Source: Candidatus Omnitrophota bacterium
GTDB taxonomy: Bacteria > Omnitrophota > Gorgyraeia > Gygaellales > Profunditerraquicolaceae
NCBI GenBank assembly: GCA_028712175.1
Contig: JAQTQQ010000004.1
Coordinates: 2,180-66,179 of the forward strand
DNA: 64,000 nucleotides
Direction: 5' to 3'
The notes beneath the pieces are model-generated. The model did not search any database and was not told the DNA's origin. It was given only the letters and a program-made list of their open reading frames with translations. Each line of letters begins with the position of its first letter. Within the stretch, counting starts at the first letter, position 1. Below, one piece after another: positions 3,040-50,628 of the stretch. Both the position numbers and the translations under genes were made by a program.

Positions 3040-3165
3040 ACAGCGGTAATCTTCTTCCATCTGGACTTTACACCCTAACCAACTTTAAAATGGGTGCCCG
3101 TTTTATTACGGAACCATCGGCCCTGGAATTTCACCAGATCTGTCCGCCATTGAATCAGTGGCGGA
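3040..3165 (-). ncRNA. FMN riboswitch (RFN element) aptamer
   Basis: The minus strand contains GGUGAAAUUCCAGGGCCGAUGGU ... AAAGUCCAGAUGGAAGAAG. This matches the conserved RFN cores (GGUGAAAUUCC; CCGxCGGU; AAAGUCUGGAUGGGAGAAGG) and has P1 pairing AUCUGG/CCAGAU. It lies upstream of ribBA. Confidence 0.75.
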
Positions 3166-3279
3166 CTCGCGGGCTTTTACAACTTAACCATATTTTTGGT
3201 TTATTGTGCTCTACCGCCGGTAAGGATTTACACCTTGCCCTGAAGATTAACTGAAATTATTTTACCAGAGAAACTAAAC

Positions 3280-15020: not shown

Positions 15021-17933
15021 TTAACGGATTACGGCAAAAGGGCAAATCTGATTATAGGCGCAATAAGTGCAGGCCTTATATTCGGGCTTAGCAGGATAAT
15101 CCTGCTTGCGGATACCTCCAGAAACAATAAGAATATCTTCTTTTACTTCATCCAGATTATCCTCGGTAAGCTTGTGGCTGCCGATAATCCCTGATTCCAA
15201 AAAATACAGCTCCACTGCAACAGGTAAAACTCCAAATATATACTGATAAGCCAAGGCATAAAGCCGAAGCTGTTTATTTTCCTTAACCCGCTTATCCGCA
15301 TCCTTCTGCGTTTTAATTTCGGAGGTTTTAAAATCCATGATTACTGCCCCATCATCACGCATATCTATACGGTCAAACCTACCGGTAATTTTATTATTAC
15401 CGATTACAAAAGAAAAATCTTTTTCAATGAATTTTGGTTTGAAAGCACGCCTTTCTTCGTCCCTATAAAATCTGGATAGCGCCTGACTTCCTATGCGAAA
15501 ACGCTCTTCCTGATGATTAGCATCTAAAAACCCCTGCGGGTCAAAGTTAGCTTCAAAACAATCCAAGAGCTCATCCTCGGCCACTTTATCCCCATTAAGC
15601 TTGCGCAACAAATACCGGCTAACGGCTTCATGCATTGCCCGGCCATAAATAACCGTATGATGCTCCATAATTGGCACGCGCAGGATATTCACATATCTAT
15701 ATTTTAAAGGACAGGTCAAATAATCATCGATTTGATAATAACTTAAAGTGACGAGCTTGTCCGCAGGAATCTCCTGAAGGGCCGGCTTAGGCAATTCTTT
15801 AACCGGCGCAAAACGCCGAATGCTTTCAATCGCGGCGGTTTTCTTCTTTTCAATCTCTTCCATGGATTTAGTGCCTAAAGCTTCCAAAATAAATTGGCTG
15901 GGCTTGCGCAGGCGCTTTCCGCCATAATCTTCGGCGCTGGTCAAATACAGCTCTGACTTGGCGCGCGTTAAACCGACATAAAAAAGGCGGCGTTCCTCCT
16001 GTAAATGAAAATCCCCGCTGGGAAGAACCTCCTTGATCAAAATATCAGGAAGTTCGATTTGCTGTGAACGCCTGGGAACCGGAAACTTCCCCTGCACAAG
16101 GCTGACTAAAAATACTACCCTGAATTCAAGGCCTTTAGCCTTATGTATGGTTAAAATATTTACCGCGTCCTGATCCATATCTGCCTCAACCGTAGGAGGA
16201 TCGTCTCCCGAATCAATCAATAGGTTAAGATGCCTGATAAAACTGATCACCCGGTCCTCTTTAGCAATAAGCTCAAAATCGCGCACCTGGTTAAAAAACT
16301 TAGCGATATTCTGGATCTTATTTTCTTTCTCAAGGCTTGGGTCATGCGTCAGATATCTAAGGTAACCCGTATCAGTCAGAAAACTATAAAGCAGCCTGCC
16401 GGTTGTTTCATCGCGGGAAACCTGCAGAAATTTCTCAATATCTAAAACCAACTGTTCTATTTTTTTCTTAGTCTCATCTTTTATCTGGCTTAGCTCCGGA
16501 ATATTTTCTAAATCTCCAAACACGGAATAAAGTGAGCGATTTCTACGCCGGGCAAAATGGCTGCACAGCGACAGGTCAACCAGGTCTACTTTATAAATTT
16601 CGGAACTTACCAAATAATATAAACTTAATGAATCTGAAGGATTGGCAATTACACGTAAAAAGTTAATACACAACTTAACCTCGCCTCTGCCATACAGCCC
16701 CTGATTACCGCTAAATTGCCACGGAATACTCAACATATTTAATGACTGAATAAAACTCATAGCGTCGGAATTAGAACGCACAAGAATAGCAAAATCCCTA
16801 TACTTATACTTACCTAAACTTACTTTATCTTGTATAATCTTACTTACATTATCAGCTTCGGCAGAATGCGTATCAAAGTGCAAATGAACGGGATTTGGGC
16901 CTCCACCGGTCAGGCCGATAAGATGCTTATTGATCTTTGCTTTTATCTCAAAACGTTCAGGGTTATTGTGCTGGATTAGCTGATAGCTGCTATCCAGTAT
17001 CGGTTGGGTGGAACGGTAGTTTTTAATTAAAGTAATCTTCTCCGCCTTAGGGTACTCCTCGATAAAGTTTAAGACATTACTATAAGCAGCCCCTCGCCAG
17101 CGGTAAATACACTGGTCATCATCGGCAACTACGGTAATATTTTTAATCGAACCAGCAAGAAGTTTTACAATTTGGAATTGCGCAAAATTCGTATCCTGAA
17201 ATTCATCTACTAAAATGTATTTAAATTGTTTTTGATAATTCTTCAGGACCAACGGATGCTGGCGCAAGAGCTGCAGGCTTAAATAAAATTGATTGCCGAA
17301 ATCAATCAACCCTTCTTTGGCTAAAAGCTCCTGATATTTAAGATAAGCAGCCGCTACCTCCATCTGCTGCAATGCCAGCTCCTCATTAGCCTTATCAAAC
17401 GGCTTATTTTTCGCTTCAACCATAAAATCCTGTGCGTATCTTAAATATTCTTTGGCTGAAATATCCTCATCTTTAGCGCGGCTAAAAAATGAGATAAGCG
17501 CTTCGATAAAACGCGTGGGTTCTGCTAAGGGGCGGTAATAGGTAAGTGAAAATTCGAACAGATGCTCGCGGAAGAATACTGCGGCTTCGGCTTGAGTGAG
17601 TACTTTAAAATCAGGATTAAGCCCGGCGACTAAGGCATTCTCGCGCAAAAGGCGGTCTCCAAAAGCATGAAATGTAGAGATCCAGATATCGGTATAACCA
17701 TAAGGCATCAGGATATCCACTCTCTCCTGCATTTCTTTAGCTGCCTTATCGGTAAAAGTAAGCGCCAAGATTTCATCGGTTTTAGCTAAATCCTGATTAA
17801 TCAGCCAGGCAATACGCTGGGTAATTACCCGGGTCTTACCGGTTCCGGCTCCGGCAATAATTAAAAGAGGCCCATCGCCGAAAGTGACCGCGTTAATTTG
17901 CTCTTTGTTTAAACCTTCTAATACTTTATTCAT
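15021..17933 (-). CDS. UvrD/PcrA-family SF1 helicase fused to a C-terminal PD-(D/E)XK Cas4/AddB-like Fe-S nuclease domain
   Basis: 970 aa with Walker A GAGTGKT and a DEFQDTN motif. The C-terminal nuclease domain has a four-Cys signature (CPLKY ... CTYCAYNQICPF). Confidence 0.8.
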   Translation of the reverse strand: MNKVLEGLNKEQINAVTFGDGPLLIIAGAGTGKTRVITQRIAWLINQDLAKTDEILALTFTDKAAKEMQERVDILMPYGYTDIWISTFHAFGDRLLRENALVAGLNPDFKVLTQAEAAVFFREHLFEFSLTYYRPLAEPTRFIEALISFFSRAKDEDISAKEYLRYAQDFMVEAKNKPFDKANEELALQQMEVAAAYLKYQELLAKEGLIDFGNQFYLSLQLLRQHPLVLKNYQKQFKYILVDEFQDTNFAQFQIVKLLAGSIKNITVVADDDQCIYRWRGAAYSNVLNFIEEYPKAEKITLIKNYRSTQPILDSSYQLIQHNNPERFEIKAKINKHLIGLTGGGPNPVHLHFDTHSAEADNVSKIIQDKVSLGKYKYRDFAILVRSNSDAMSFIQSLNMLSIPWQFSGNQGLYGRGEVKLCINFLRVIANPSDSLSLYYLVSSEIYKVDLVDLSLCSHFARRRNRSLYSVFGDLENIPELSQIKDETKKKIEQLVLDIEKFLQVSRDETTGRLLYSFLTDTGYLRYLTHDPSLEKENKIQNIAKFFNQVRDFELIAKEDRVISFIRHLNLLIDSGDDPPTVEADMDQDAVNILTIHKAKGLEFRVVFLVSLVQGKFPVPRRSQQIELPDILIKEVLPSGDFHLQEERRLFYVGLTRAKSELYLTSAEDYGGKRLRKPSQFILEALGTKSMEEIEKKKTAAIESIRRFAPVKELPKPALQEIPADKLVTLSYYQIDDYLTCPLKYRYVNILRVPIMEHHTVIYGRAMHEAVSRYLLRKLNGDKVAEDELLDCFEANFDPQGFLDANHQEERFRIGSQALSRFYRDEERRAFKPKFIEKDFSFVIGNNKITGRFDRIDMRDDGAVIMDFKTSEIKTQKDADKRVKENKQLRLYALAYQYIFGVLPVAVELYFLESGIIGSHKLTEDNLDEVKEDILIVSGGIRKQDYPAKPEYKACTYCAYNQICPFAVIR

Positions 17934-17957
17934 AGTTTAATTCTTAAAAATCGGTTT

Positions 17958-18074
17958 TAGCTATTAGCTCGTAGCTATTAGCTCTTAGAAAAACATTGTT
18001 TACAGCAAAATAAGGTTAAAAGGCTAAACAGAAAACACTTGGTTTCTAGCTCTTAGCTCATAGCTAAGAGCTAA
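17958..18074. repeat. Modular intergenic palindromic repeat, copy A (heptad arm, core1, core2, inverted heptad arm)
   Basis: Left arm TAGCTAT/TAGCTCG/TAGCTAT/TAGCTCT heptads, then core1 aaaaacattgtttacagcaaaataagg, core2 aaggctaaacagaaaacacttggtttc, and a palindromic right arm agctcttagctcatagctaagagct. Copy B at 18265-18430 has a near-identical layout. Confidence 0.7.
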
Positions 18075-18264
18075 ATCCCATCAACAGTACAAACGCTGCT
18101 AATATTGCTAATATTGCAATAATGAATACAATCTTATGCTTCGGGTATCGCAACCTGCCCATGAAACCAACACTACGATTTAAGCTCTCTCCGCAGAAAA
18201 TGCAAAACAACGCCTCATCATCATATATCGGCTGTTTGCAATGGGGACATGTGTATGCGCTCAT
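18064..18264 (-). CDS. Small zinc-ribbon membrane protein (CPHC...CIFC plus C-terminal TM helix)
   Basis: 66 aa with two CxxC pairs and a hydrophobic C-terminus. There is no clear SD. The stop and last codons lie inside repeat arm R1, and the start abuts repeat copy B. Confidence 0.45.
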   Translation of the reverse strand: MSAYTCPHCKQPIYDDEALFCIFCGESLNRSVGFMGRLRYPKHKIVFIIAILAILAAFVLLMGFSS

Positions 18265-18430
18265 ATTAGCTCTTAGCTCTTAGAAAAACATTGTTTACAG
18301 CAAAATAAGGGTCGCTAGACTATAGTCGATGGTCGATAAAATCTGGCCTCCATAAATTCATGCACAAAAGGCTAAGGCAGAAAACACTCGGTTTCTAGCT
18401 TTTAGCTCATAGCTACGAGCTAAGAGCTAA
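18265..18430. repeat. Modular intergenic palindromic repeat, copy B (as copy A, plus an inserted GACTATAGTC palindrome module)
   Basis: core1 is identical to copy A (27/27) and core2 is about 90% identical. The insert is gtcgctagactatagtcgatggtcgataaaatc, carrying the perfect 10-bp palindrome GACTATAGTC. The right arm is agcttttagctcatagctacgagctaagagct. Confidence 0.7.
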
Positions 18431-18442
18431 TTATATTCTATC

Positions 18443-18470
18443 TTGACAATGCCTGAATTTCAAGTATACT
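18443..18470 (+). promoter_or_regulatory. Sigma70-type promoter TTGACA-16nt-TATACT for rpmB
   Basis: -35 TTGACA at 18443-18448 and -10 TATACT at 18465-18470. It is followed by the SD GAAGGAG and the ATG at 18499. Confidence 0.6.
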
Positions 18471-18498
18471 TATTAAACTTAAATGAAGGAGAAATCAA

Positions 18499-18753
18499 AT
18501 GTTAAAAGAATGCGTAATCTGCAAAAAAGGTGCACTTCAAGGGAAAGTATTATCCAGAAAGGGCCAATATAAAGCTAAAGGCGGTACAGGTTCAAAGATT
18601 GCCCGCTGGAGCAAGCGTAAATTTCTGCCTAATCTACAAAAGGTAAATATGGTGGTCGAGGGAACTTCCAAGAGGGTCTTTATCTGCGCCAAATGCATTA
18701 AAAAAGGCGATTTCAAAAAAGCAGTCCCCAGAAAACCTAGACCCACTACTTAA
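18499..18753 (+). CDS. rpmB: 50S ribosomal protein L28 (Zn-ribbon C+ form)
   Basis: 84 aa matching the L28 pattern CxICxKG ... RxFxPNLQ ... CAKCxKxG. Has a strong SD. Confidence 0.85.
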   Translation: MLKECVICKKGALQGKVLSRKGQYKAKGGTGSKIARWSKRKFLPNLQKVNMVVEGTSKRVFICAKCIKKGDFKKAVPRKPRPTT

Positions 18754-20434
18754 AAAATATATCTTTGGCCTCAAGGATTATTGATTCTTCCCTGCGCCAG
18801 CTGTCTATTTTTGGCGTATAAATAAGATCAAAAAATTCTGCCTGCAGCAGGCTCTCTCTTAAACCACTCATACCAAAAGCAATAACCTGCCAAGTAGTAG
18901 CTCCATCGGTTGCCCAAAACTTTAGTGTCCCGCGATTTAAAAGCTGTATTTCTCCTTTTAGCTTTAAAGAACGCGTATAAAATAAAGGTTCGGGATTTTC
19001 CATGCCAAACGGTTCTAAAAGCTCTAATTCTTTAACCAAACCTTCATTTAATTCGGCAAAACTAATTTCCAAATCAATATCCTTACTGGGGAGCAAATCC
19101 TCCAAAGTTAATCTGTCGCTGGCCAGCCTGTTGATACTCTTCCTAAAATCATCAATATTATCTTTGGTAATTAATAAACCTGCGGCATGAGCGTGGCCTC
19201 CAAAACTGTTTAAGAGCTCCTTACAATCGAGAAGTGCATTAAAAAGATGGAAATTCTTAATTGAACGCGCCGAACCCTTGCATAACTCTTCACTTAAAGA
19301 GATCACTATTGCCGGACGGTAAAATCTGTCGGCAAGTTTAGAGGCAACAATGCCTAAAACACCCTGATGCCAATCTTCTTTGGCAATTACAATTACTTTA
19401 TGGTCTTTAAAATTAACCTGTGCGTTAATCAATTGTTCCGCTTCTTCTAAAATCTTGCCTTCGATCTTCTGGCGCTGGCGATTTAGCTGTTCTAATTCTC
19501 TGGATAAATTTTGCGCCTCTGCCTCACTCCGGCTCATCAATAATTTTAATGACACCTCAGCGCTAGAGATCCTGCCGGCTGCATTCAAGCGGGGGGCAAT
19601 AATAAAACTTACATAAGTAGAATTAAACTTCTTATTTTCAATGCCTGCATTTTCAATTATAGCGCGCAGACCCCATCTTTTGGTTTCCGGCAGCCTCAAC
19701 AAACCTTCTTTGGCGATAATCCGGTTTTCACCGGTTAAAGGCACACTATCTGCGATTGTACCTAAAGTTACCAAATCCAGATCATCGGGCAACAAAGAAC
19801 CTGACAGGCCTTGAGCAAATTTATAAGCCACCCCCACCCCGGCTAACTCCCTGTAAGGATAAGTTGAATGTTTTACTTTTGGATTAATAATACAGGATGC
19901 CCCTGGCAAATTTGAATTCTGCGGCTCATGATGATCCGTAATAATCACGTCAATATTTGCCCGTCTTAAAGCCTCTATCTCTTTATGGTTGGTTATACCG
20001 CAGTCAGCAGTAACCATAAGCTTAACATGGTTTTTCACAGCAAAATCAACAATATCTTGATTTAACCCGTAACCTTCGGTAATCCTATGGGGGATATGGT
20101 GTAGAACAACTAAACCTATCGCCTCAAGCCTATTTTTAAGCAAAACTGTACTAGTAATCCCATCCACATCATAGTCTCCAAAAACCATTACTTTTTCATT
20201 ATTAGCCTCTGCCTTTTTAACCAAGCTGATTGCCTTAGGCATATCCGTGAATAGGTGCGGGCTAAATAAATCTGCGATTGAAGGTTTTAGAAACTTTTCT
20301 GCTTGAGCTGCGGTAATTATCTTGCGGTTAATCAAGATCTGGGCCAGTATTTTTGAAATACCTAATTCTTTTGCAAATTGATTCTGCAGGGAAACATGCG
20401 GGGCGGCTATTCGTAAGATTGTGTGACTGGACAT
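18746..20434 (-). CDS. recJ: Single-stranded-DNA-specific exonuclease RecJ
   Basis: 562 aa with DHH motifs (DYDVDGITS, ITDHHEP) and a DHHA1 domain. Confidence 0.9.
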   Translation of the reverse strand: MSSHTILRIAAPHVSLQNQFAKELGISKILAQILINRKIITAAQAEKFLKPSIADLFSPHLFTDMPKAISLVKKAEANNEKVMVFGDYDVDGITSTVLLKNRLEAIGLVVLHHIPHRITEGYGLNQDIVDFAVKNHVKLMVTADCGITNHKEIEALRRANIDVIITDHHEPQNSNLPGASCIINPKVKHSTYPYRELAGVGVAYKFAQGLSGSLLPDDLDLVTLGTIADSVPLTGENRIIAKEGLLRLPETKRWGLRAIIENAGIENKKFNSTYVSFIIAPRLNAAGRISSAEVSLKLLMSRSEAEAQNLSRELEQLNRQRQKIEGKILEEAEQLINAQVNFKDHKVIVIAKEDWHQGVLGIVASKLADRFYRPAIVISLSEELCKGSARSIKNFHLFNALLDCKELLNSFGGHAHAAGLLITKDNIDDFRKSINRLASDRLTLEDLLPSKDIDLEISFAELNEGLVKELELLEPFGMENPEPLFYTRSLKLKGEIQLLNRGTLKFWATDGATTWQVIAFGMSGLRESLLQAEFFDLIYTPKIDSWRREESIILEAKDIFFK

Positions 20435-27547: not shown

Positions 27548-27550
27548 CTT

Positions 27551-27680
27551 TGGCCAAAGGTCGAAAGACTAAAGTCTAAAAATTCATCTCTAGCCTAGGC
27601 TTTGTGCGCCCTTTTAGGCTTGCAACTTTAGTCTTTAAATTATACATGGTTTTCTACGATTCACGAACTAAGAACTAATT
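27551..27680. repeat. Modular intergenic palindromic repeat, copy D (long imperfect hairpin plus CGAACTA heptads abutting the trpC stop)
   Basis: Contains ggtcgaaagactaaagtc. The 11-bp inverted repeat aagactaaagt (27565-27575) / actttagtctt (27625-27635) flanks the ctagcctagg palindrome. The heptads cgattca/cgaacta/agaacta end exactly at the trpC stop codon. Confidence 0.65.
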
Positions 27681-30041: not shown

Positions 30042-30060
30042 TTAAATCTCCCCAAAGAAT

Positions 30061-30150
30061 GGCCGATAGACTATGGACCATAGTCGATAAAACCAGTTCC
30101 TAACTCTTGACTCGCAGCCCGTAGGAAAACCTACGAACTAAGAACTTATT
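30061..30150. repeat. Modular intergenic palindromic repeat, copy C (GACTATGG-a-CCATAGTC module, hairpin, and CGAACTA heptads abutting the murA stop)
   Basis: ggccgatagactatggaccatagtcgataaaacc is a homolog of the copy B insert. It is followed by the cgtaggaaaacctacg hairpin and the heptads acgaact/aagaact, which end at the murA stop codon. Confidence 0.65.
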
Positions 30151-43591: not shown

Positions 43592-43605
43592 GTTTTCTTA
43601 GATTA

Positions 43606-43690
43606 AGGGTTGATAACCTATGGGCGATGGCCGAGAAAACCGAAGGTTTTATGAACTTTGCCTATAGTCTTTCGACCAATAAATTATTCC
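43606..43690. repeat. Modular intergenic palindromic repeat, copy E (inverted orientation)
   Basis: The reverse complement ggtcgaaagactatagg matches the copy B/C/D modules. There is also an aaaacc-gaa-ggtttt hairpin at 43636-43650. Confidence 0.55.
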
Positions 43691-43777
43691 AGAATTCCGG
43701 TTTCTATAGCAAACTTTGCGCTAACATCTAACAACCTAAATAACTATAAACAATCTTATTGACTCGAAACGTAAAGC

Positions 43778-49344: not shown

Positions 49345-49360
49345 TTTTATAATTAAGACA

Positions 49361-49420
49361 TAGGAAAAAGAGGACGTTTCTATTTATTTTAAGTATCGGC
49401 TACGATAAATAGAAACGTCC
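49361..49420 (-). terminator. Rho-independent terminator (16-bp perfect inverted repeat plus T-run)
   Basis: ggacgtttctatttat (49372-49387) and ataaatagaaacgtcc (49405-49420) with a 17-nt loop. On the minus strand it is followed by TCTTTTTCC, and it sits between the GHL10 gene stop and the queA start. Confidence 0.6.
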
Positions 49421-49440
49421 CGATTTTACCTTTTCTAATT

Positions 49441-50628
49441 TTAATTTAGGTAGCCGATTATCTGATCGGTCAAATCATCAATAGAAAAGAATACCACTCC
49501 ATCGGCCAACAAATCAGTAACCATGCGGTATTGATTAAAAAACAGGTCAGGTTTATTTTTCATCAAAAATAATCCTATACCGATATAAACCTTGCCCTTA
49601 CCTCTGTGCCCAAGAGCAGATTTAACTATTCTCTTGGCAAATTGGTTATCTTTGGTGTATGCCATCAATACAACATAATCAATAAGACCGTCCTCAAGCC
49701 ACGCCGACCAATCTTGGAATGCATTAGCATATGCACGCTCAATTAAAGAGATGACTGCGCAAGAAACTAAAAGGTTCGGGGATTTTACCTTAACTAAACT
49801 TGCAATCTTACGCACCAATTCCGTAAGCTGCTGGCGCTTCCAATTATCCCAAGCTAAGTATTCATCTTCATTATTCAAGGTATCTAAACTATTTAACCCG
49901 GTCTTATCTTTAAAACGTTCCACGTTTTTTACCCCGTAACCATAAGTTAAGCCAAATTTATTAAATCTTGTCCCCGGGACAAACGGGACAGGCGAAGGGT
50001 AACGCAGGTAATCCAGGTGAATCCCGCTGATTAGCGGATAACGGTTAATAATTTCATTGATGATCGTCAGGATATATTCCTCTACCCTGGGATCTCCAGG
50101 CTCTAAAAATATCATATCCTCTCTTAAATAATATTTGTCTATTTCCATATTTGATGCAACTTTTGAAGGCCTTTGGTATTGATCGCGGGTTAAAATGGAA
50201 TTGCCGTATTTAGTTAAAATACTGGCCTTATCATTATTGCCCAAGCTTAAAACATTTACCCATGCAAAAACATTTATATTATTTTCCTGAGCCTCCCTCA
50301 ACAATAGGTCCAGCGTGTCTAAACCGGCGGCTTTAACCATCTGGTCATATTTGGACCTATCACAAATCTTAGAATCATAATAAGCATTACCTGATTGAAA
50401 AATTTGCAGATAAATCTCATTTATTTTCGCCTTCTTGCATGTTGCTATCAAGTTATGCACCCCTTCTTTTGAATAAAGCGTCTTTTTAGCAGAAAATACT
50501 GATACCCAAACACCGCGCCTGGGTTCGTTTTTTAAAGATGGGGTTTTATCTTCGGCCGACAAAGAATCAAACCCGAGCGAGCAAAGCAAAAATAAAACCA
50601 GTATTTTAAAAATAAACTTACTTTTCAT
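49441..50628 (-). CDS. Glycoside-hydrolase-like GHL10 (DUF187) family lipoprotein
   Basis: A signal peptide / lipobox-like N-terminus and a TIM-barrel-like DUF187 core (GVWV...EIYLQIF...). Confidence 0.6.
   Translation of the reverse strand: MKSKFIFKILVLFLLCSLGFDSLSAEDKTPSLKNEPRRGVWVSVFSAKKTLYSKEGVHNLIATCKKAKINEIYLQIFQSGNAYYDSKICDRSKYDQMVKAAGLDTLDLLLREAQENNINVFAWVNVLSLGNNDKASILTKYGNSILTRDQYQRPSKVASNMEIDKYYLREDMIFLEPGDPRVEEYILTIINEIINRYPLISGIHLDYLRYPSPVPFVPGTRFNKFGLTYGYGVKNVERFKDKTGLNSLDTLNNEDEYLAWDNWKRQQLTELVRKIASLVKVKSPNLLVSCAVISLIERAYANAFQDWSAWLEDGLIDYVVLMAYTKDNQFAKRIVKSALGHRGKGKVYIGIGLFLMKNKPDLFFNQYRMVTDLLADGVVFFSIDDLTDQIIGYLN

What the first reader, a model, noticed from the sequence alone, without database searches (positions are those of the whole stretch)
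17934..18498. Two copies of a composite palindromic repeat bracket a 66-aa zinc-ribbon membrane mini-ORF
Copy A (17958-18074) and copy B (18265-18430) share an identical 27-nt core1 and a roughly 90% identical core2. Both are flanked by arms of TAGCTNT heptads that are inverted relative to each other (agctcttag ... ctaagagct). Copy B also carries a module with the perfect palindrome GACTATAGTC. The 66-aa ORF between them (CxxC...CxxC plus a TM helix) takes its last codons and its stop from repeat arm R1. It has no SD, although SDs are common elsewhere in the window. This could be a MITE-like mobile unit carrying or disrupting a small gene. It could also be a structured sRNA or regulatory locus sitting at the promoter regions of the helicase-nuclease gene and rpmB.
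Basis: seen in the sequence. Interest (0 to 1): 0.7.

Follow-up and report, generated by a model that had tools for sequence, protein, structure and literature searches.

The report
Heptad-armed palindromic intergenic repeats, duplicated
The two repeats are real: they are copies of a non-coding hairpin element whose arms are runs of the 7-base unit TTAGCTN, one of a small family that sits between genes in this Omnitrophota genome and, in a strikingly similar form, between nearly every gene of some uncultured phages; the 66-aa gene between them is a genuine, intact small gene, not a casualty.

Summary
Two direct copies of arm-core-arm flank a 66-aa ORF, and the heptad pattern is far above chance.

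- **Host and site.** The window is Candidatus Omnitrophota. Several relatives at about 70% helicase identity have only 72-80 nt between the helicase gene and rpmB, holding back-to-back promoters. Here 473 nt (copy A, ORF, copy B) lie between the helicase -10 box and its ATG.
- **The ORF.** It belongs to a conserved 64-aa zinc-ribbon/TM family found in unrelated contexts. It is intact.
- **Other copies.** Four of the seven intergenic gaps over 90 nt hold related elements, made of TTAGYTC heptads or a hairpin plus a 35-nt 'module'. All have the same polarity.
- **Relatives.** A sister species keeps one of these orthologously, with a compensatory stem change. A more distant relative has an empty junction.
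- **Phages.** Inverted TTAGCTN arrays with variable cores fill gene junctions of uncultured phage contigs, about 24 in 35 kb. Three control heptads gave none.

Best reading: a REP/STRR-like foldback repeat, locally duplicated, transcribed as leader and intercistronic hairpins with stops in nearly all frames. The function is inferred. Mobility of the gene-carrying unit is not shown. No sRNA was found.

The parts
17934..17957 (.). Residual spacer between the helicase start codon (17933, minus strand) and copy A
   Evidence: Relatives with an empty site have 3-14 nt here.
17958..17988 (.). Copy A outer arm: TAGCTAT TAGCTCG TAGCTAT TAGCTCT TAG (4.4 heptads)
   Evidence: It is complementary to 18055-18074 (I5, 90%) and to 18404-18430 (I3, 93%).
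17989..18015 (.). Core1 of copy A (27 nt, identical to 18284-18310)
18016..18046 (.). Core2 of copy A (TT + AAAAGGCTAAACAGAAAACACTTGGTTTC)
   Evidence: (D1)
18047..18074 (.). Copy A hairpin arm, TAGCTCTTAGCT-CAT-AGCTAAGAGCTAA. It contains the last codons and the TAG stop of the mini-ORF.
   Evidence: (I11)
18064..18264 (-). Mini-ORF, 66 aa: zinc ribbon plus C-terminal TM helix. It is an intact member of a conserved 64-aa family.
18265..18283 (.). Copy B inner arm, ATTAGCTCTTAGCTCTTAG. It abuts the mini-ORF ATG and pairs with 18413-18431 (95%).
   Evidence: (I6)
18284..18310 (.). Core1 of copy B
18304..18348 (.). 'Module' (GGGTCGCTAGACTATAGTCGATGGTCGATAAAATC), part of the 55-nt segment 18311-18365 that copy A lacks. 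It belongs to a dispersed motif family.
   Evidence: The orthologue is in L067 3914-3959.
18366..18395 (.). Core2 of copy B
18396..18430 (.). Copy B outer hairpin arm (TAGCTTT TAGCTCA TAGCTACGAGCTAAGAGCTAA). Its outer end coincides with the start of sequence conserved in all relatives.
18435..18463 (-). Promoter-like site facing the helicase (TTGAAA-17-TAGAAT). The predicted start near 18428 falls at the first heptad of copy B.
   Evidence: The block ATTCTATCTTGACA...TTTCAAGTATACT is conserved across relatives. The transcription start is inferred.
18443..18470 (+). rpmB promoter-like site TTGACA-16-TATACT (11/12), just outside the repeat
27548..27678 (-). Related element in the trpC|trpF gap. 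TTAGTTC TTAGTTC GTGAATC GTAG follows the stop directly, then an internal hairpin and a module-like sequence.
   Evidence: The module-like resemblance was judged by eye; nhmmer gave only E = 6.
30042..30145 (-). Related element in the murA|trpG gap: TTAGTTCGTAGG-TTTT-CCTACGGGCTG hairpin right after the stop, then the module
   Evidence: The orthologue in L102 7403-7526 has cleaner heptads.
43592..43777 (-). Related element in the folD|MTHFR gap: module (43602-47) plus an inverted partner (43640-78) and degenerate CTAACAN heptads

Best explanation
Copies A and B are two local, directly repeated copies of a non-coding 'foldback' intergenic repeat. Its arms are inverted arrays of the heptanucleotide TTAGCTN, and its interior is a variable core.

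**Family.** The element belongs to a lineage-specific family of extragenic palindromes. Each member has a TTAGYTC heptad run or hairpin immediately after the stop codon of one gene, then a spacer, then a roughly 35-nt 'module' 15-80 nt before the next start codon. These elements punctuate the tightly packed, co-directional gene arrays of this Omnitrophota genome.

**This locus.** It lies in a hypervariable spacer. Several more distant relatives (about 70% helicase identity) have only 72-80 nt there, containing back-to-back rpmB and helicase promoters. Here a genuine small gene (zinc-ribbon membrane protein) and the two elements, 473 nt together, lie between the helicase -10 box and the helicase ATG.

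**Transcripts (inferred).** Copy B would then be the 5' leader of a mini-ORF-helicase mRNA, and copy A the intercistronic spacer.

**Origin (inferred).** Heptad arrays grow by replication slippage. The palindromic AGCT core lets arrays pair within and between arms. Recombination or gene conversion between arms then produced the A/B duplication from the simpler arrangement still seen in the sister species.

**Function (inferred, about one chance in three).** The elements would act like REP/BIME elements or the T7 intercistronic hairpins.
- The heptads put a stop codon in nearly every reading frame: in all six for both copy B arms, and in all three frames on the rpmB strand but only two on the gene strand for the copy A arms.
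- The long stems, with 13-19 paired bases in the predicted folds and 20-27-nt complementary arms, form stable RNA hairpins that delimit cistrons.
- The stems would protect the 3' end of the upstream message and occlude the region just before the mini-ORF start codon.
For: **Shown.**
- Anatomy and non-randomness.
- Organism and 60-odd syntenic loci.
- The conserved sequence shared with relatives begins at 18431, one base after copy B ends. Empty spacers of 72-80 nt exist in L041, L042, L045, L052, L053 and L061.
- Divergent promoter-like sites lie in the conserved block.
- The mini-ORF family has 12 members, 11 of them 64 aa, with invariant CPHC/C..CG. They occur in unrelated neighbourhoods without repeats. 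The window version is 66 aa because 4 nt at the old TAA are missing and the frame runs into a heptad TAG.
- Four of the seven intergenic gaps over 90 nt carry related elements, all in one polarity.
- Thirty of the small and medium neighbouring genes scanned are housekeeping (trp, fol, murA, ribosomal and others). No transposase, integrase or RHH gene is among them.
- The sister species (L067/L102) has orthologous arm, core1 and module, a 24-bp heptad hairpin between the mini-ORF and the helicase, and an orthologous heptad hairpin at murA|trpG. That hairpin shows an A-T to G-C compensatory change at the loop-closing stem. The sense strand folds better there (-42.7 vs -36.7 kcal/mol; window -31.4 vs -20.3).
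- In the more distant L104, murA and trpG overlap, so the site is empty.
- At the same helicase/rpmB spacer, L050 and L048 carry heptad-periodic inverted arrays built from unrelated heptads. In L050 they bracket a PNPOx gene.
- Period-7 arrays number 20, against 0-5 for periods 5, 6 and 8-11, in about 800 kb.
- Stop codons are present in five or six of the six frames of each arm.
- The predicted fold of the copy B transcript closes with a 15 + 3 bp stem ending at the base before the AUG.
- Phage contigs carry [TTAGCTN x4-5]-core-[AGCTAAN x4-5] elements that exactly fill gene junctions, about 24 in 34.5 kb of one contig, with MFE -33 to -60 kcal/mol. Three control heptad hairpin patterns gave 0 hits.

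**From the literature.** Heptanucleotides are the commonest 5-11-nt simple repeats in bacteria, attributed to polymerase slippage. Intergenic heptamer arrays next to start codons are known in Beggiatoaceae and cyanobacteria (PMC4679880; bioRxiv 10.1101/2022.06.06.494920).
Against: - **No expression data.** Co-transcription, the transcription start at about 18428 and any processing are inferred from consensus matches only.
- **Strand asymmetry is mixed.** Copy B folds slightly better on the antisense strand (-52.0 vs -47.8). In the phages, 10 of the 12 elements flanked by co-directional genes fold better on the strand antisense to those genes, and the core occurs in both orientations. That fits a DNA-level or orientation-independent role better than an RNA one.
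- **The cores are unexplained.** Core1 is identical in A and B, which points to a very recent duplication and says nothing about function.
- **The module is not structurally conserved.** It has no conserved hairpin and no convincing promoter consensus.
- **Homology to the phage elements is not established.** The similarity rests on the heptad and the architecture, so convergence is possible.
- **Limited genome coverage.** Only 64 kb of the genome could be examined.
Confidence: 0.55

Rival explanations
1. This is a MITE-like or foldback mobile element. The heptad arrays would be terminal inverted repeats recognised by a trans-acting transposase, for example a RAYT/IS200-type enzyme acting on single-stranded hairpins. 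The block copy B-mini-ORF-copy A would be a composite unit that carried the small gene into the helicase/rpmB spacer.
For: - The inserted block is bounded exactly by the outer arms when compared with empty sites.
- Outer arms 17957-17983 and 18404-18430 are 93% complementary (I3), and the DNA fold pairs them.
- Constant arms with variable 'cargo' (0 to about 120 nt) occur in the window, in L067 and in the phages.
- The phage elements are near-identical across phages whose proteins are only 28-68% identical. They are absent from orthologous junctions of L086, and they occur in both orientations.
- The mini-ORF occupies many different neighbourhoods.
- Assemblies of this species break inside the element (L001, L003, L004).
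Against: - No target-site duplication is visible at either copy or at the phage copies.
- No transposase was found among the window genes scanned.
- No second copy of the cores was found in the window, the relatives or the two public collections.
- The mini-ORF has no such repeats in eight other contexts.
- Arm length varies and 'half' elements are common.
- The other window elements are old and diverged and sit at orthologous sites in the sister species. That looks like vertical inheritance, not recent jumping.
Confidence: 0.15
2. The heptads are iterons for a small sequence-specific DNA-binding protein, such as an omega/ParR/RHH-type repressor or a centromere-binding protein. The protein would coat direct and inverted 7-bp sites that flank a promoter-containing core, and would regulate or insulate the divergent rpmB and helicase promoters.
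For: - The same 5-of-7 fixed heptad (TAGCT) recurs in unrelated genomes of 40% and 55-65% GC, while three control heptad hairpins give nothing. This suggests a sequence-specific reader.
- AGCT is a palindromic tetramer at 7-bp spacing, as expected for dimeric beta-ribbon binders (own knowledge of omega of pSM19035 and ParR/parC of R1).
- Arrays flank cores that contain promoter-like hexamers: TTTACA-16-TAGACT in copy B and TGTTATAAT in L067.
- The location is a divergent promoter region.
Against: - No RHH, ParA or similar gene lies next to the locus or among the 30 window proteins scanned.
- At the same hotspot, other species use quite different heptads, and L050 uses several in one locus. One protein cannot explain that.
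- The other window elements sit inside operons right after stop codons, not at promoters.
- In the phages the elements occupy nearly every gene junction of the late operon.
Confidence: 0.1
3. The repeats are neutral by-products of slippage and palindrome-driven recombination in a recombination-prone spacer. They would have no function of their own beyond making the site unstable.
For: - The spacer is hypervariable across relatives, from 72 nt to more than 5 kb, with different genes.
- Unrelated heptad arrays arose there in L048 and L050.
- Heptanucleotide slippage is a known mutational bias (PMC4679880, citing Mrazek 2007).
- The other window copies are decaying.
- One strain variant (L001) differs at two positions that make the arm a perfect palindrome, as hairpin-templated correction would do.
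Against: - This genome is very compact, with most gaps under 50 nt. Retaining 100-180-nt elements at orthologous junctions in two species, with a compensatory stem change, argues for constraint.
- All elements share the same polarity and the same position relative to stop and start codons.
- The phages devote about 6% of a genome to them.
Confidence: 0.15
4. Each copy, or copy B alone, encodes a small regulatory RNA on the rpmB strand. The promoter would be in core1 and the module, and the heptad hairpin would be the terminator.
For: - A 9/12 promoter-like match lies at 18294-18321, and a terminator-like hairpin with a T-rich tail lies at 18396-18429, both on the + strand.
- L067 has an extended -10 (TGTTATAAT) at the equivalent place.
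- The + strand of copy A folds with a z-score of -3.4.
Against: - There is no Rfam match.
- Copy A lacks the -10 part (the module).
- The predicted promoter count in the region (5) is not above shuffles (2.9 +/- 1.5).
- Cores are not conserved beyond the sister species.
- Folding z-scores are driven by the arms.
Confidence: 0.05

Closest known systems
REP/BIME elements and REPINs (E. coli, Pseudomonas; Bertels & Rainey 2011, PMC3116915)
   Same: - Short (about 100 nt) extragenic imperfect palindromes built from two inverted units plus a spacer.
- Predicted to form hairpins in ssDNA or mRNA.
- They sit between co-directional genes just after stop codons.
- Several diverged families exist per genome.
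- They occur as singlets ('half' elements) and as doublets.
   Different: - The arms here are arrays of a 7-nt unit, not a single 20-35-nt REP with a 5' GTAG.
- No RAYT gene was found, but only 64 kb could be searched.
- Density is low in the window (5 copies in 64 kb).
- The core content is variable.
Heptanucleotide tandem repeats: cyanobacterial STRR/heptamer repeats and TAACTGA repeats of Beggiatoaceae (MacGregor 2015, PMC4679880; Pradhan et al., bioRxiv 10.1101/2022.06.06.494920)
   Same: - Seven-nt unit, 2-6 or more copies.
- Intergenic position, often ending within a few nt of a start codon.
- SD sequences are often absent nearby.
- The unit contains stop codons.
- Phylogenetic distribution is patchy, including apparently unrelated lineages.
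- A regulatory role is proposed but unproven.
   Different: - Those are almost always direct repeats: 169 direct sets against one indirect set in BOGUAY.
- Here the defining feature is paired inverted arrays enclosing a core, giving 13-35-bp stems.
- The unit is different (TTAGCTN).
- The host is different (Omnitrophota, uncultured phages).
MITEs and foldback elements (e.g. Correia/NEMIS elements; Drosophila FB elements, whose inverted termini are arrays of short subrepeats). Own knowledge.
   Same: - Non-coding and of about 100-170 nt.
- Terminal inverted repeats, in FB elements made of tandem subrepeats.
- Variable internal segment.
- Multi-copy, with presence/absence at orthologous sites.
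   Different: - No target-site duplication.
- No cognate transposase.
- Arm length is variable.
- There is no evidence of recent dispersal in the Omnitrophota genome.
Intercistronic RNase III processing hairpins of phage T7, and mRNA-stabilising REP hairpins in malE-malF and hisJ-hisQ. Own knowledge.
   Same: - Long hairpins with an internal asymmetric loop, placed at gene junctions of polycistronic operons next to the downstream ribosome-binding site.
- This is what the phage TTAGCTN elements look like (arms, then an AAGTAACTT bulge, then a GC hairpin).
   Different: - No cleavage or stability data exist here.
- The element's orientation relative to transcription is not fixed in the phages.
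- T7 sites are not built from heptads.
Heptad iterons of the omega repressor (pSM19035) and the iteron-core-iteron centromere/operator parC of plasmid R1. Own knowledge.
   Same: - Runs of 7-bp (omega) or 11-bp (parC) sites in direct and inverted orientation.
- In parC, the sites flank a promoter core.
   Different: - No partner protein gene.
- The elements occur inside operons and at almost every phage gene junction.
- Other heptads are used at the same hotspot in related species.
Integron attC sites and gene cassettes. Own knowledge.
   Same: - A small, promoterless-looking ORF bracketed by imperfect palindromes of variable length (57-141 nt for attC).
- The site's gene content differs between relatives.
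   Different: - No integrase gene was found among the genes scanned or upstream of the helicase; the two rpmB-side neighbours are RecJ and ArgS.
- No R'/R'' GTTRRRY core sites.
- The same ORF elsewhere lacks any such site.

Membership tests
REPIN / REP-RAYT system | Two inverted REP units plus a spacer that form a hairpin, located in extragenic space | tested here: met
   Arms are inverted and 90-95% complementary, and the elements lie only in intergenic gaps.
REPIN / REP-RAYT system | Many copies per genome that fall into sequence families | tested here: inconclusive
   Five copies at four loci in 64 kb, and orthologues in the sister species. The rest of the genome could not be scanned, and core1 is absent from the GTDB representatives and the JGI contigs.
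REPIN / REP-RAYT system | A cognate RAYT (Y1 HUH transposase) gene in the genome, usually flanked by REPs | not testable with these tools
   None among the 30 window proteins scanned. The whole genome is not available.
REPIN / REP-RAYT system | Conserved 5' GTAG tetranucleotide ahead of the palindrome | tested here: inconclusive
   GTAG occurs in some heptads (CGTAGCT, GTAGG at 30.1 kb and in L067). Most units read TTAG.
Heptanucleotide simple-sequence (STRR/TAACTGA-type) repeats | Tandem head-to-tail copies of a 7-nt unit, intergenic | tested here: met
   TRF reports period 7 with 2.6-4.6 copies per arm. Period 7 is enriched over periods 5, 6 and 8-11.
Heptanucleotide simple-sequence (STRR/TAACTGA-type) repeats | Predominantly direct orientation, without a paired inverted array | tested here: not met
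   Every full element has an inverted partner array.
MITE | Terminal inverted repeats | tested here: met
MITE | Target-site duplication flanking each copy | tested here: not met
   Flanks are GGTTT|...|ATCCC for copy A and CATAT|...|TTATA for copy B. The phage copies have none either.
MITE | Near-identical copies at unlinked loci, and empty sites in relatives | tested here: inconclusive
   Empty sites exist. The only near-identical pair is the adjacent A/B pair. The phage copies are near-identical and dispersed.
Integron gene cassette | attC with R''/L''-L'/R' (RYYYAAC...GTTRRRY), and an adjacent intI/attI | tested here: not met
   No such core sites are present in the sequence. No integrase was found among the 30 window proteins scanned or upstream of the helicase gene, and the two rpmB-side neighbours are RecJ and ArgS.
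Known RNA families (Rfam 15) | Match to a covariance model | tested here: not met
   Nothing better than E = 4 in 17000-19500. At gathering thresholds the whole window yields only an FMN riboswitch.
Zinc-ribbon small membrane protein family (mini-ORF) | CxxC...CxxC ribbon, conserved GFMG motif, C-terminal TM helix, about 64 aa | tested here: met
   12-sequence alignment with 18 invariant columns. Pfam zinc-ribbon models match below threshold.

The most novel reading that the evidence does not exclude
TTAGCTN-heptad foldback elements would be a distinct, so far undescribed class of 'cistron punctuation' or selfish DNA shared across phyla.

- The same arm chemistry (palindromic AGCT core, TAG/TAA in nearly every reading frame, 7-nt register) would be either recognised by an unknown ssDNA- or RNA-acting enzyme, or selected convergently.
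- The elements would spread to saturate gene junctions in some phages and seed hypervariable gene-insertion sites in bacterial chromosomes such as this Omnitrophota helicase/rpmB spacer.
- Genes such as the mini-ORF, or PNPOx in L050, would be captured between paired elements by arm-to-arm recombination.
Probability: 0.25. Interest if true: 0.75.

Novelty: new variant of a known kind. Interest (0 to 1): 0.55.

Why it matters
Extragenic palindromes (REPs, REPINs, STRRs) are among the least understood recurrent features of bacterial genomes. Almost nothing is known about them in uncultured phyla such as Omnitrophota.

- **A bridge between two classes.** This locus shows a variant that joins two known classes: heptanucleotide simple repeats and hairpin-forming REP-like elements.
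- **A traceable history.** Within one clade one can follow a 75-nt promoter spacer growing into a gene-bearing, repeat-bracketed insertion.
- **A tractable phage system.** The same arm design appears at almost every gene junction of some uncultured phages. That offers many near-identical copies in a small genome for testing what such elements do: mRNA processing or insulation, all-frame translation stops, recombination hotspots, or transposition.
- **A practical consequence.** Assemblies break at these palindromes, and gene callers skipped the real 66-aa gene between them.

Tried and rejected
- **Exact searches for core1.** The GTDB representative genomes gave 0 hits. The JGI metagenome contigs gave six hits, all chance matches without heptads.
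- **Exact look-up of the mini-ORF.** It is not on record, meaning it was not called as a gene.
- **Rfam and ARAGORN** on the locus, the whole window and L067 found no relevant RNA, tRNA or tmRNA.
- **Is copy B a remnant of the structured RNA found at this site in relatives?** An nhmmer profile of that RNA finds nothing in the window. Rejected.
- **Is the module a sigma-70 or sigma-28 promoter?** G(T/C)CGATAA resembles the sigma-28 -10 box, but it lies on the strand opposite to the genes, with no TAAA at the correct spacing, and sigma-70 spacings do not fit. Rejected by inspection.
- **Is the module a conserved hairpin?** The palindrome GACTATAGTC is not kept in the other copies. Rejected.
- **Integron cassette idea.** Rejected: no integrase and no core sites.
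- **Annotated phages.** BLAST of the phage element, the phage locus and copy A against 50,697 annotated phage genomes gave no match. The low-complexity filter may contribute to this.
- **Literature search** for the arm sequences found nothing relevant. Elhai et al. 2008, on small repeats nested in heptamer arrays, is not held.
- **Strand asymmetry of folding as a test of RNA- versus DNA-level function.** The results are mixed and not decisive.
Full report
**1.

Reading 17500-19000 shows two direct copies of a composite element.
- Copy A (17958-17988 / 17989-18015 / 18016-18046 / 18047-18074) consists of a left arm of TAGCTNT heptads, the 27-nt core1, core2, and a right arm.
- Copy B (18265-18283 / 18284-18310 / 18311-18365 / 18366-18395 / 18396-18430) has the same parts plus a 55-nt extra segment. 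That segment contains the palindrome GACTATAGTC.
- Core1 occurs exactly twice in 64 kb, where shuffles expect none.
- The heptad pattern gives 16 hits, 15 of them here, against 0.72 expected. TRF calls period-7 arrays.
- Left and right arms are mutually complementary, 90-95% within a copy and 93% between copies. Each right arm is also a perfect or near-perfect local hairpin.
- The 66-aa ORF (18064-18264, minus strand) ends GGA TTT AGC TCT TAG, so it ends inside the arm.
- A second assembly of the same species has the same 565 nt (L002). Three other assemblies break inside or next to the element.

**2. Where it sits**

- The flanking genes are a UvrD-type helicase with a PD-(D/E)XK nuclease domain (15021-17933, minus strand), ribosomal protein L28 (18499-18753, plus strand) and RecJ.
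- A scan of GTDB representatives with the helicase returned 60-odd syntenic loci, most titled Candidatus Omnitrophota, with 67-90% amino-acid identity.
- In L041, L042, L045, L052, L053 and L061 (68-74% helicase identity), the helicase and rpmB start codons are only 72-80 nt apart.
- The block ...TATATTCTATCTTGACAAT...TTTCAAGTATACT... is conserved in most relatives. In the window it begins at 18431, one base after copy B ends.
- That block holds two face-to-face promoter-like sites: TTGACA-16-TATACT for rpmB and TTGAAA-17-TAGAAT towards the helicase.
- In the short-spacer species the -10 box lies 9-14 nt from the helicase ATG, so that mRNA would be leaderless or nearly so (inference).
- In the window, 473 nt (copy A, ORF, copy B) lie between that -10 box and the helicase ATG. 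If the promoter is used, copy B is the 5' leader of the mini-ORF and copy A is the spacer between the mini-ORF and the helicase (inference).
- Across the closer relatives this spacer is hypervariable, from 120 nt to more than 5 kb, with different genes.

**3. The mini-ORF is a real, intact gene**

- Eight database proteins and three loci (L067, L020, L023) encode 64-aa homologues at 56-67% identity. They share invariant CPHC...C..CG, a GFMG motif and a hydrophobic tail.
- These homologues lie in unrelated neighbourhoods: after a TonB-dependent receptor, a radical-SAM gene or a VanZ gene. Apart from L067, none has heptad repeats.
- The window protein is two residues longer. Relative to L067 (…GGG ATT TAA TAGCTC…), four bases at the old stop are missing, and translation runs on to the TAG of the first heptad.
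- Nothing is disrupted.

**4. The element has relatives in the same genome**

- The genome is very compact. Only seven gaps exceed 90 nt.
- Four of these gaps hold related sequences: the finding itself, trpC|trpF (27548-27678), murA|trpG (30042-30145) and folD|MTHFR (43592-43777).
- Read in the direction of the genes, they share TTAG[C/T]TC-type heptads or a heptad hairpin directly after the upstream stop codon.
- They also share a roughly 35-nt 'module' (GGTTTTATCGACCATCGNCTATAGTCTANCGNCCC) 15-80 nt before the next ATG (15-44 nt in the window copies).
- An nhmmer profile of the module finds three window copies plus an inverted partner, and L067. It finds nothing in about 700 kb of other Omnitrophota loci. 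The 27.6-kb copy is recognised by eye only (nhmmer E = 6).
- Consecutive [TG]TAG[CT]TN heptads occur only at the finding and at 27665-27678, against 0.2 expected.
- Thirty neighbouring small and medium proteins are housekeeping. No transposase, integrase or ribbon-helix-helix protein is among them.

**5. Comparison with the sister species**

- L067 and L102 (89% helicase identity over the 295 residues available, collinear with window 18-39 kb) carry, in the same spacer, a 24-bp heptad hairpin between the mini-ORF and the helicase.
- After two further small genes (a desulforedoxin-like gene and a 119-aa secreted protein), they carry a degenerate arm, core1-like sequence and the module. These align to copy B.
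- The two-copy arrangement of the window is therefore derived. Copy A gained the cores, and copy B gained a hairpin arm, by recombination or conversion between arms (inference).
- At murA|trpG the sister species has a cleaner element: five TTAGYTC heptads, a TTTT loop, five inverse heptads, and a module remnant.
- The loop-closing pairs read CATAGG/CCTATG there and CGTAGG/CCTACG here, which is a compensatory change.
- In both species the sense strand folds better (-42.7 vs -36.7 and -31.4 vs -20.3 kcal/mol), because of G-U pairs.
- In the more distant L104, murA and trpG overlap by 4 nt, so the site is empty.

**6. Heptad palindromes recur at this hotspot and in phages**

- In L050 the same spacer holds a PNPOx-family gene bracketed by inverted arrays of GGACCAA, GGACGAN, GCGTTCA and TGTGACY heptads. 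In L048 it holds a GCAAAAG-type heptad hairpin.
- Over the window plus the Omnitrophota loci (about 800 kb), period-7 arrays number 20, against 0-5 for neighbouring periods.
- Scans of IMG/VR contigs with the window's own arm motif found uncultured phage contigs (GC 55-65%) carrying [TTAGCTN x4-5]-core-[AGCTAAN x4-5] elements.
- The hairpin pattern hit 9 and 15 loci from about ten contigs. One 36-kb contig has about 24 elements in 34.5 kb, and a 25-kb contig has at least 13.
- These elements fill the gaps between the terminase, portal, protease and major-head genes. Their MFE is -33 to -60 kcal/mol.
- Hairpin patterns built from three control heptads gave no hit. A control direct array gave one hit against eight.
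- The phages share only a few proteins at 28-68% identity, yet carry near-identical elements. One phage lacks them at orthologous junctions, and cores occur in both orientations.
- No annotated phage genome and no paper in the library contains these sequences.

**7. Interpretation**

Shown:
- a palindromic, heptad-armed, non-coding repeat family;
- a local duplication that brackets an intact gene;
- insertion between a conserved promoter and the helicase ATG;
- conservation with a compensatory change in a sister species, and empty sites further out.

Inferred:
- The heptads arise by slippage. The literature reports 7 nt as the favoured unit (PMC4679880).
- The AGCT core allows arrays to pair, which drives palindrome formation and arm-to-arm recombination.
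- As RNA, the elements would provide stop codons in nearly every frame (five or six of six per arm) and long stems that delimit cistrons and occlude the mini-ORF start. This would work like REP/BIME or the T7 intercistronic hairpins.

I put about 0.8 on the identity (a REP/STRR-like foldback repeat, locally duplicated) and about one in three on the RNA-punctuation function.

**8. Rivals**

- **Mobile cassette (MITE-like, carrying the ORF).** This is favoured by the exact arm-delimited boundaries and by the behaviour of the phage elements. It lacks target duplications, a transposase and any second copy.
- **Heptad-binding protein.** This would explain why the same heptad recurs in unrelated genomes. 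It has no candidate gene and cannot explain the other heptads at the same hotspot.
- **Neutral slippage.** This remains possible, but it sits badly with retention in a very compact genome.
- **An sRNA.** Unsupported.

**9. Limits**

- Only 64 kb of the genome and about 20 kb of collinear sequence from the sister species could be examined.
- The collection scans were exhausted before a heptad pattern could be run on bacterial genomes.
- No expression data were available.
- Homology between the phage and Omnitrophota elements, as opposed to convergence, is not established.

Noticed in passing
L056:4765-4981, L035:4559-4803, L046:2242-2488, L049:4616-4859, L054:4628-4853, L067:3440-3660 (rpmB strand); partial L036:2-161 (opposite orientation): A conserved 217-247-nt non-coding block lies next to the rpmB promoter in several Omnitrophota. 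It folds into a multi-stem structure of 66 pairs, 22 of them with compensatory double changes among only six sequences. There is no Rfam hit at E <= 0.1. It is absent from the 64-kb window. This is a candidate undescribed ncRNA, and the strand is not settled.
   Followed up: partly
IMG/VR contigs 3300021255_003533 (L094, L098, L099, L107) and 3300028833_000521 (L096, L097, L100, L110); also L085, L086, L093, L095, L105, L106, L108, L109, L111, L112: Uncultured phage contigs (GC 55-65%) are saturated with elements of about 95 nt: [TTAGCTN x4-5]-GC hairpin-AAGTAACTT-[AGCTAAN x4-5]. The elements sit at nearly every gene junction of the late operon. The core occurs in both orientations. Nothing matches in annotated phages or in the literature library.
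   Followed up: partly
L050:135-226 and 715-1062; L048:4895-4990: More distant Omnitrophota have heptad-periodic inverted arrays at the same helicase/rpmB spacer, built from unrelated heptads (GGACCAA, GGACGAN, GCGTTCA, TGTGACY; GCAAAAG). In L050 the arrays bracket a PNPOx-family gene.
   Followed up: partly
L024:3997, L046:4970, L049:4977, L062:2594, L067:3901, L102:19852, L104:4908 and 5625: A further intergenic repeat family has conserved ends, GCGGGTCCTGYC ... GTCACCCGC(TA), and a variable interior. It occurs at different junctions in different species, for example trpC|trpF in L104.
   Followed up: no
L102:4045-4168 and 17230-17339: Two intergenic gaps of the sister species begin with the same motif, (A/G)TGAGG(C/G)CATGG(T/G)TTAT(G/A)GAG(T/C)GCGAAAG(C/T)GCG. 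This is another small dispersed repeat.
   Followed up: no
L041, L042, L052, L053, L061 (spacers of 72-80 nt): In the species with a short spacer, the helicase-side -10 box (TAGAAT) lies only 9-14 nt from the helicase ATG and there is no SD. This suggests a leaderless or near-leaderless helicase mRNA made from promoters that overlap the rpmB promoter.
   Followed up: no
L001:1-40 versus window 18396-18430: A strain variant differs at two positions (T to C, A to G). Both changes turn the copy B right arm into a perfect palindrome. Three assemblies of this species end inside or beside the element, so the palindrome appears to break assemblies.
   Followed up: partly
window 3045-3251 (-): An FMN riboswitch (90.7 bits) lies upstream of the riboflavin genes. 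It is the only Rfam family above gathering score in the window.
   Followed up: no
L018:4731-4979, L025:593-829, L027:711-947, L059:2722-2958, L062:3678-3914, L063:3279-3515, L069:2729-2965: A conserved 78-82-aa protein (MNNEIQRDLGEQPIAKIMAEHGFKPNDLVSNSTEQITHKMV...) recurs in the variable island upstream of the helicase in many relatives. The one copy scanned (L018) had no Pfam match.
   Followed up: no
window 49351-49441: A 37-nt-arm inverted repeat (76% complementary) fills the 96-nt gap before the queuosine-synthesis gene. It is unrelated to the heptad family and looks like an ordinary terminator or attenuator hairpin.
   Followed up: no
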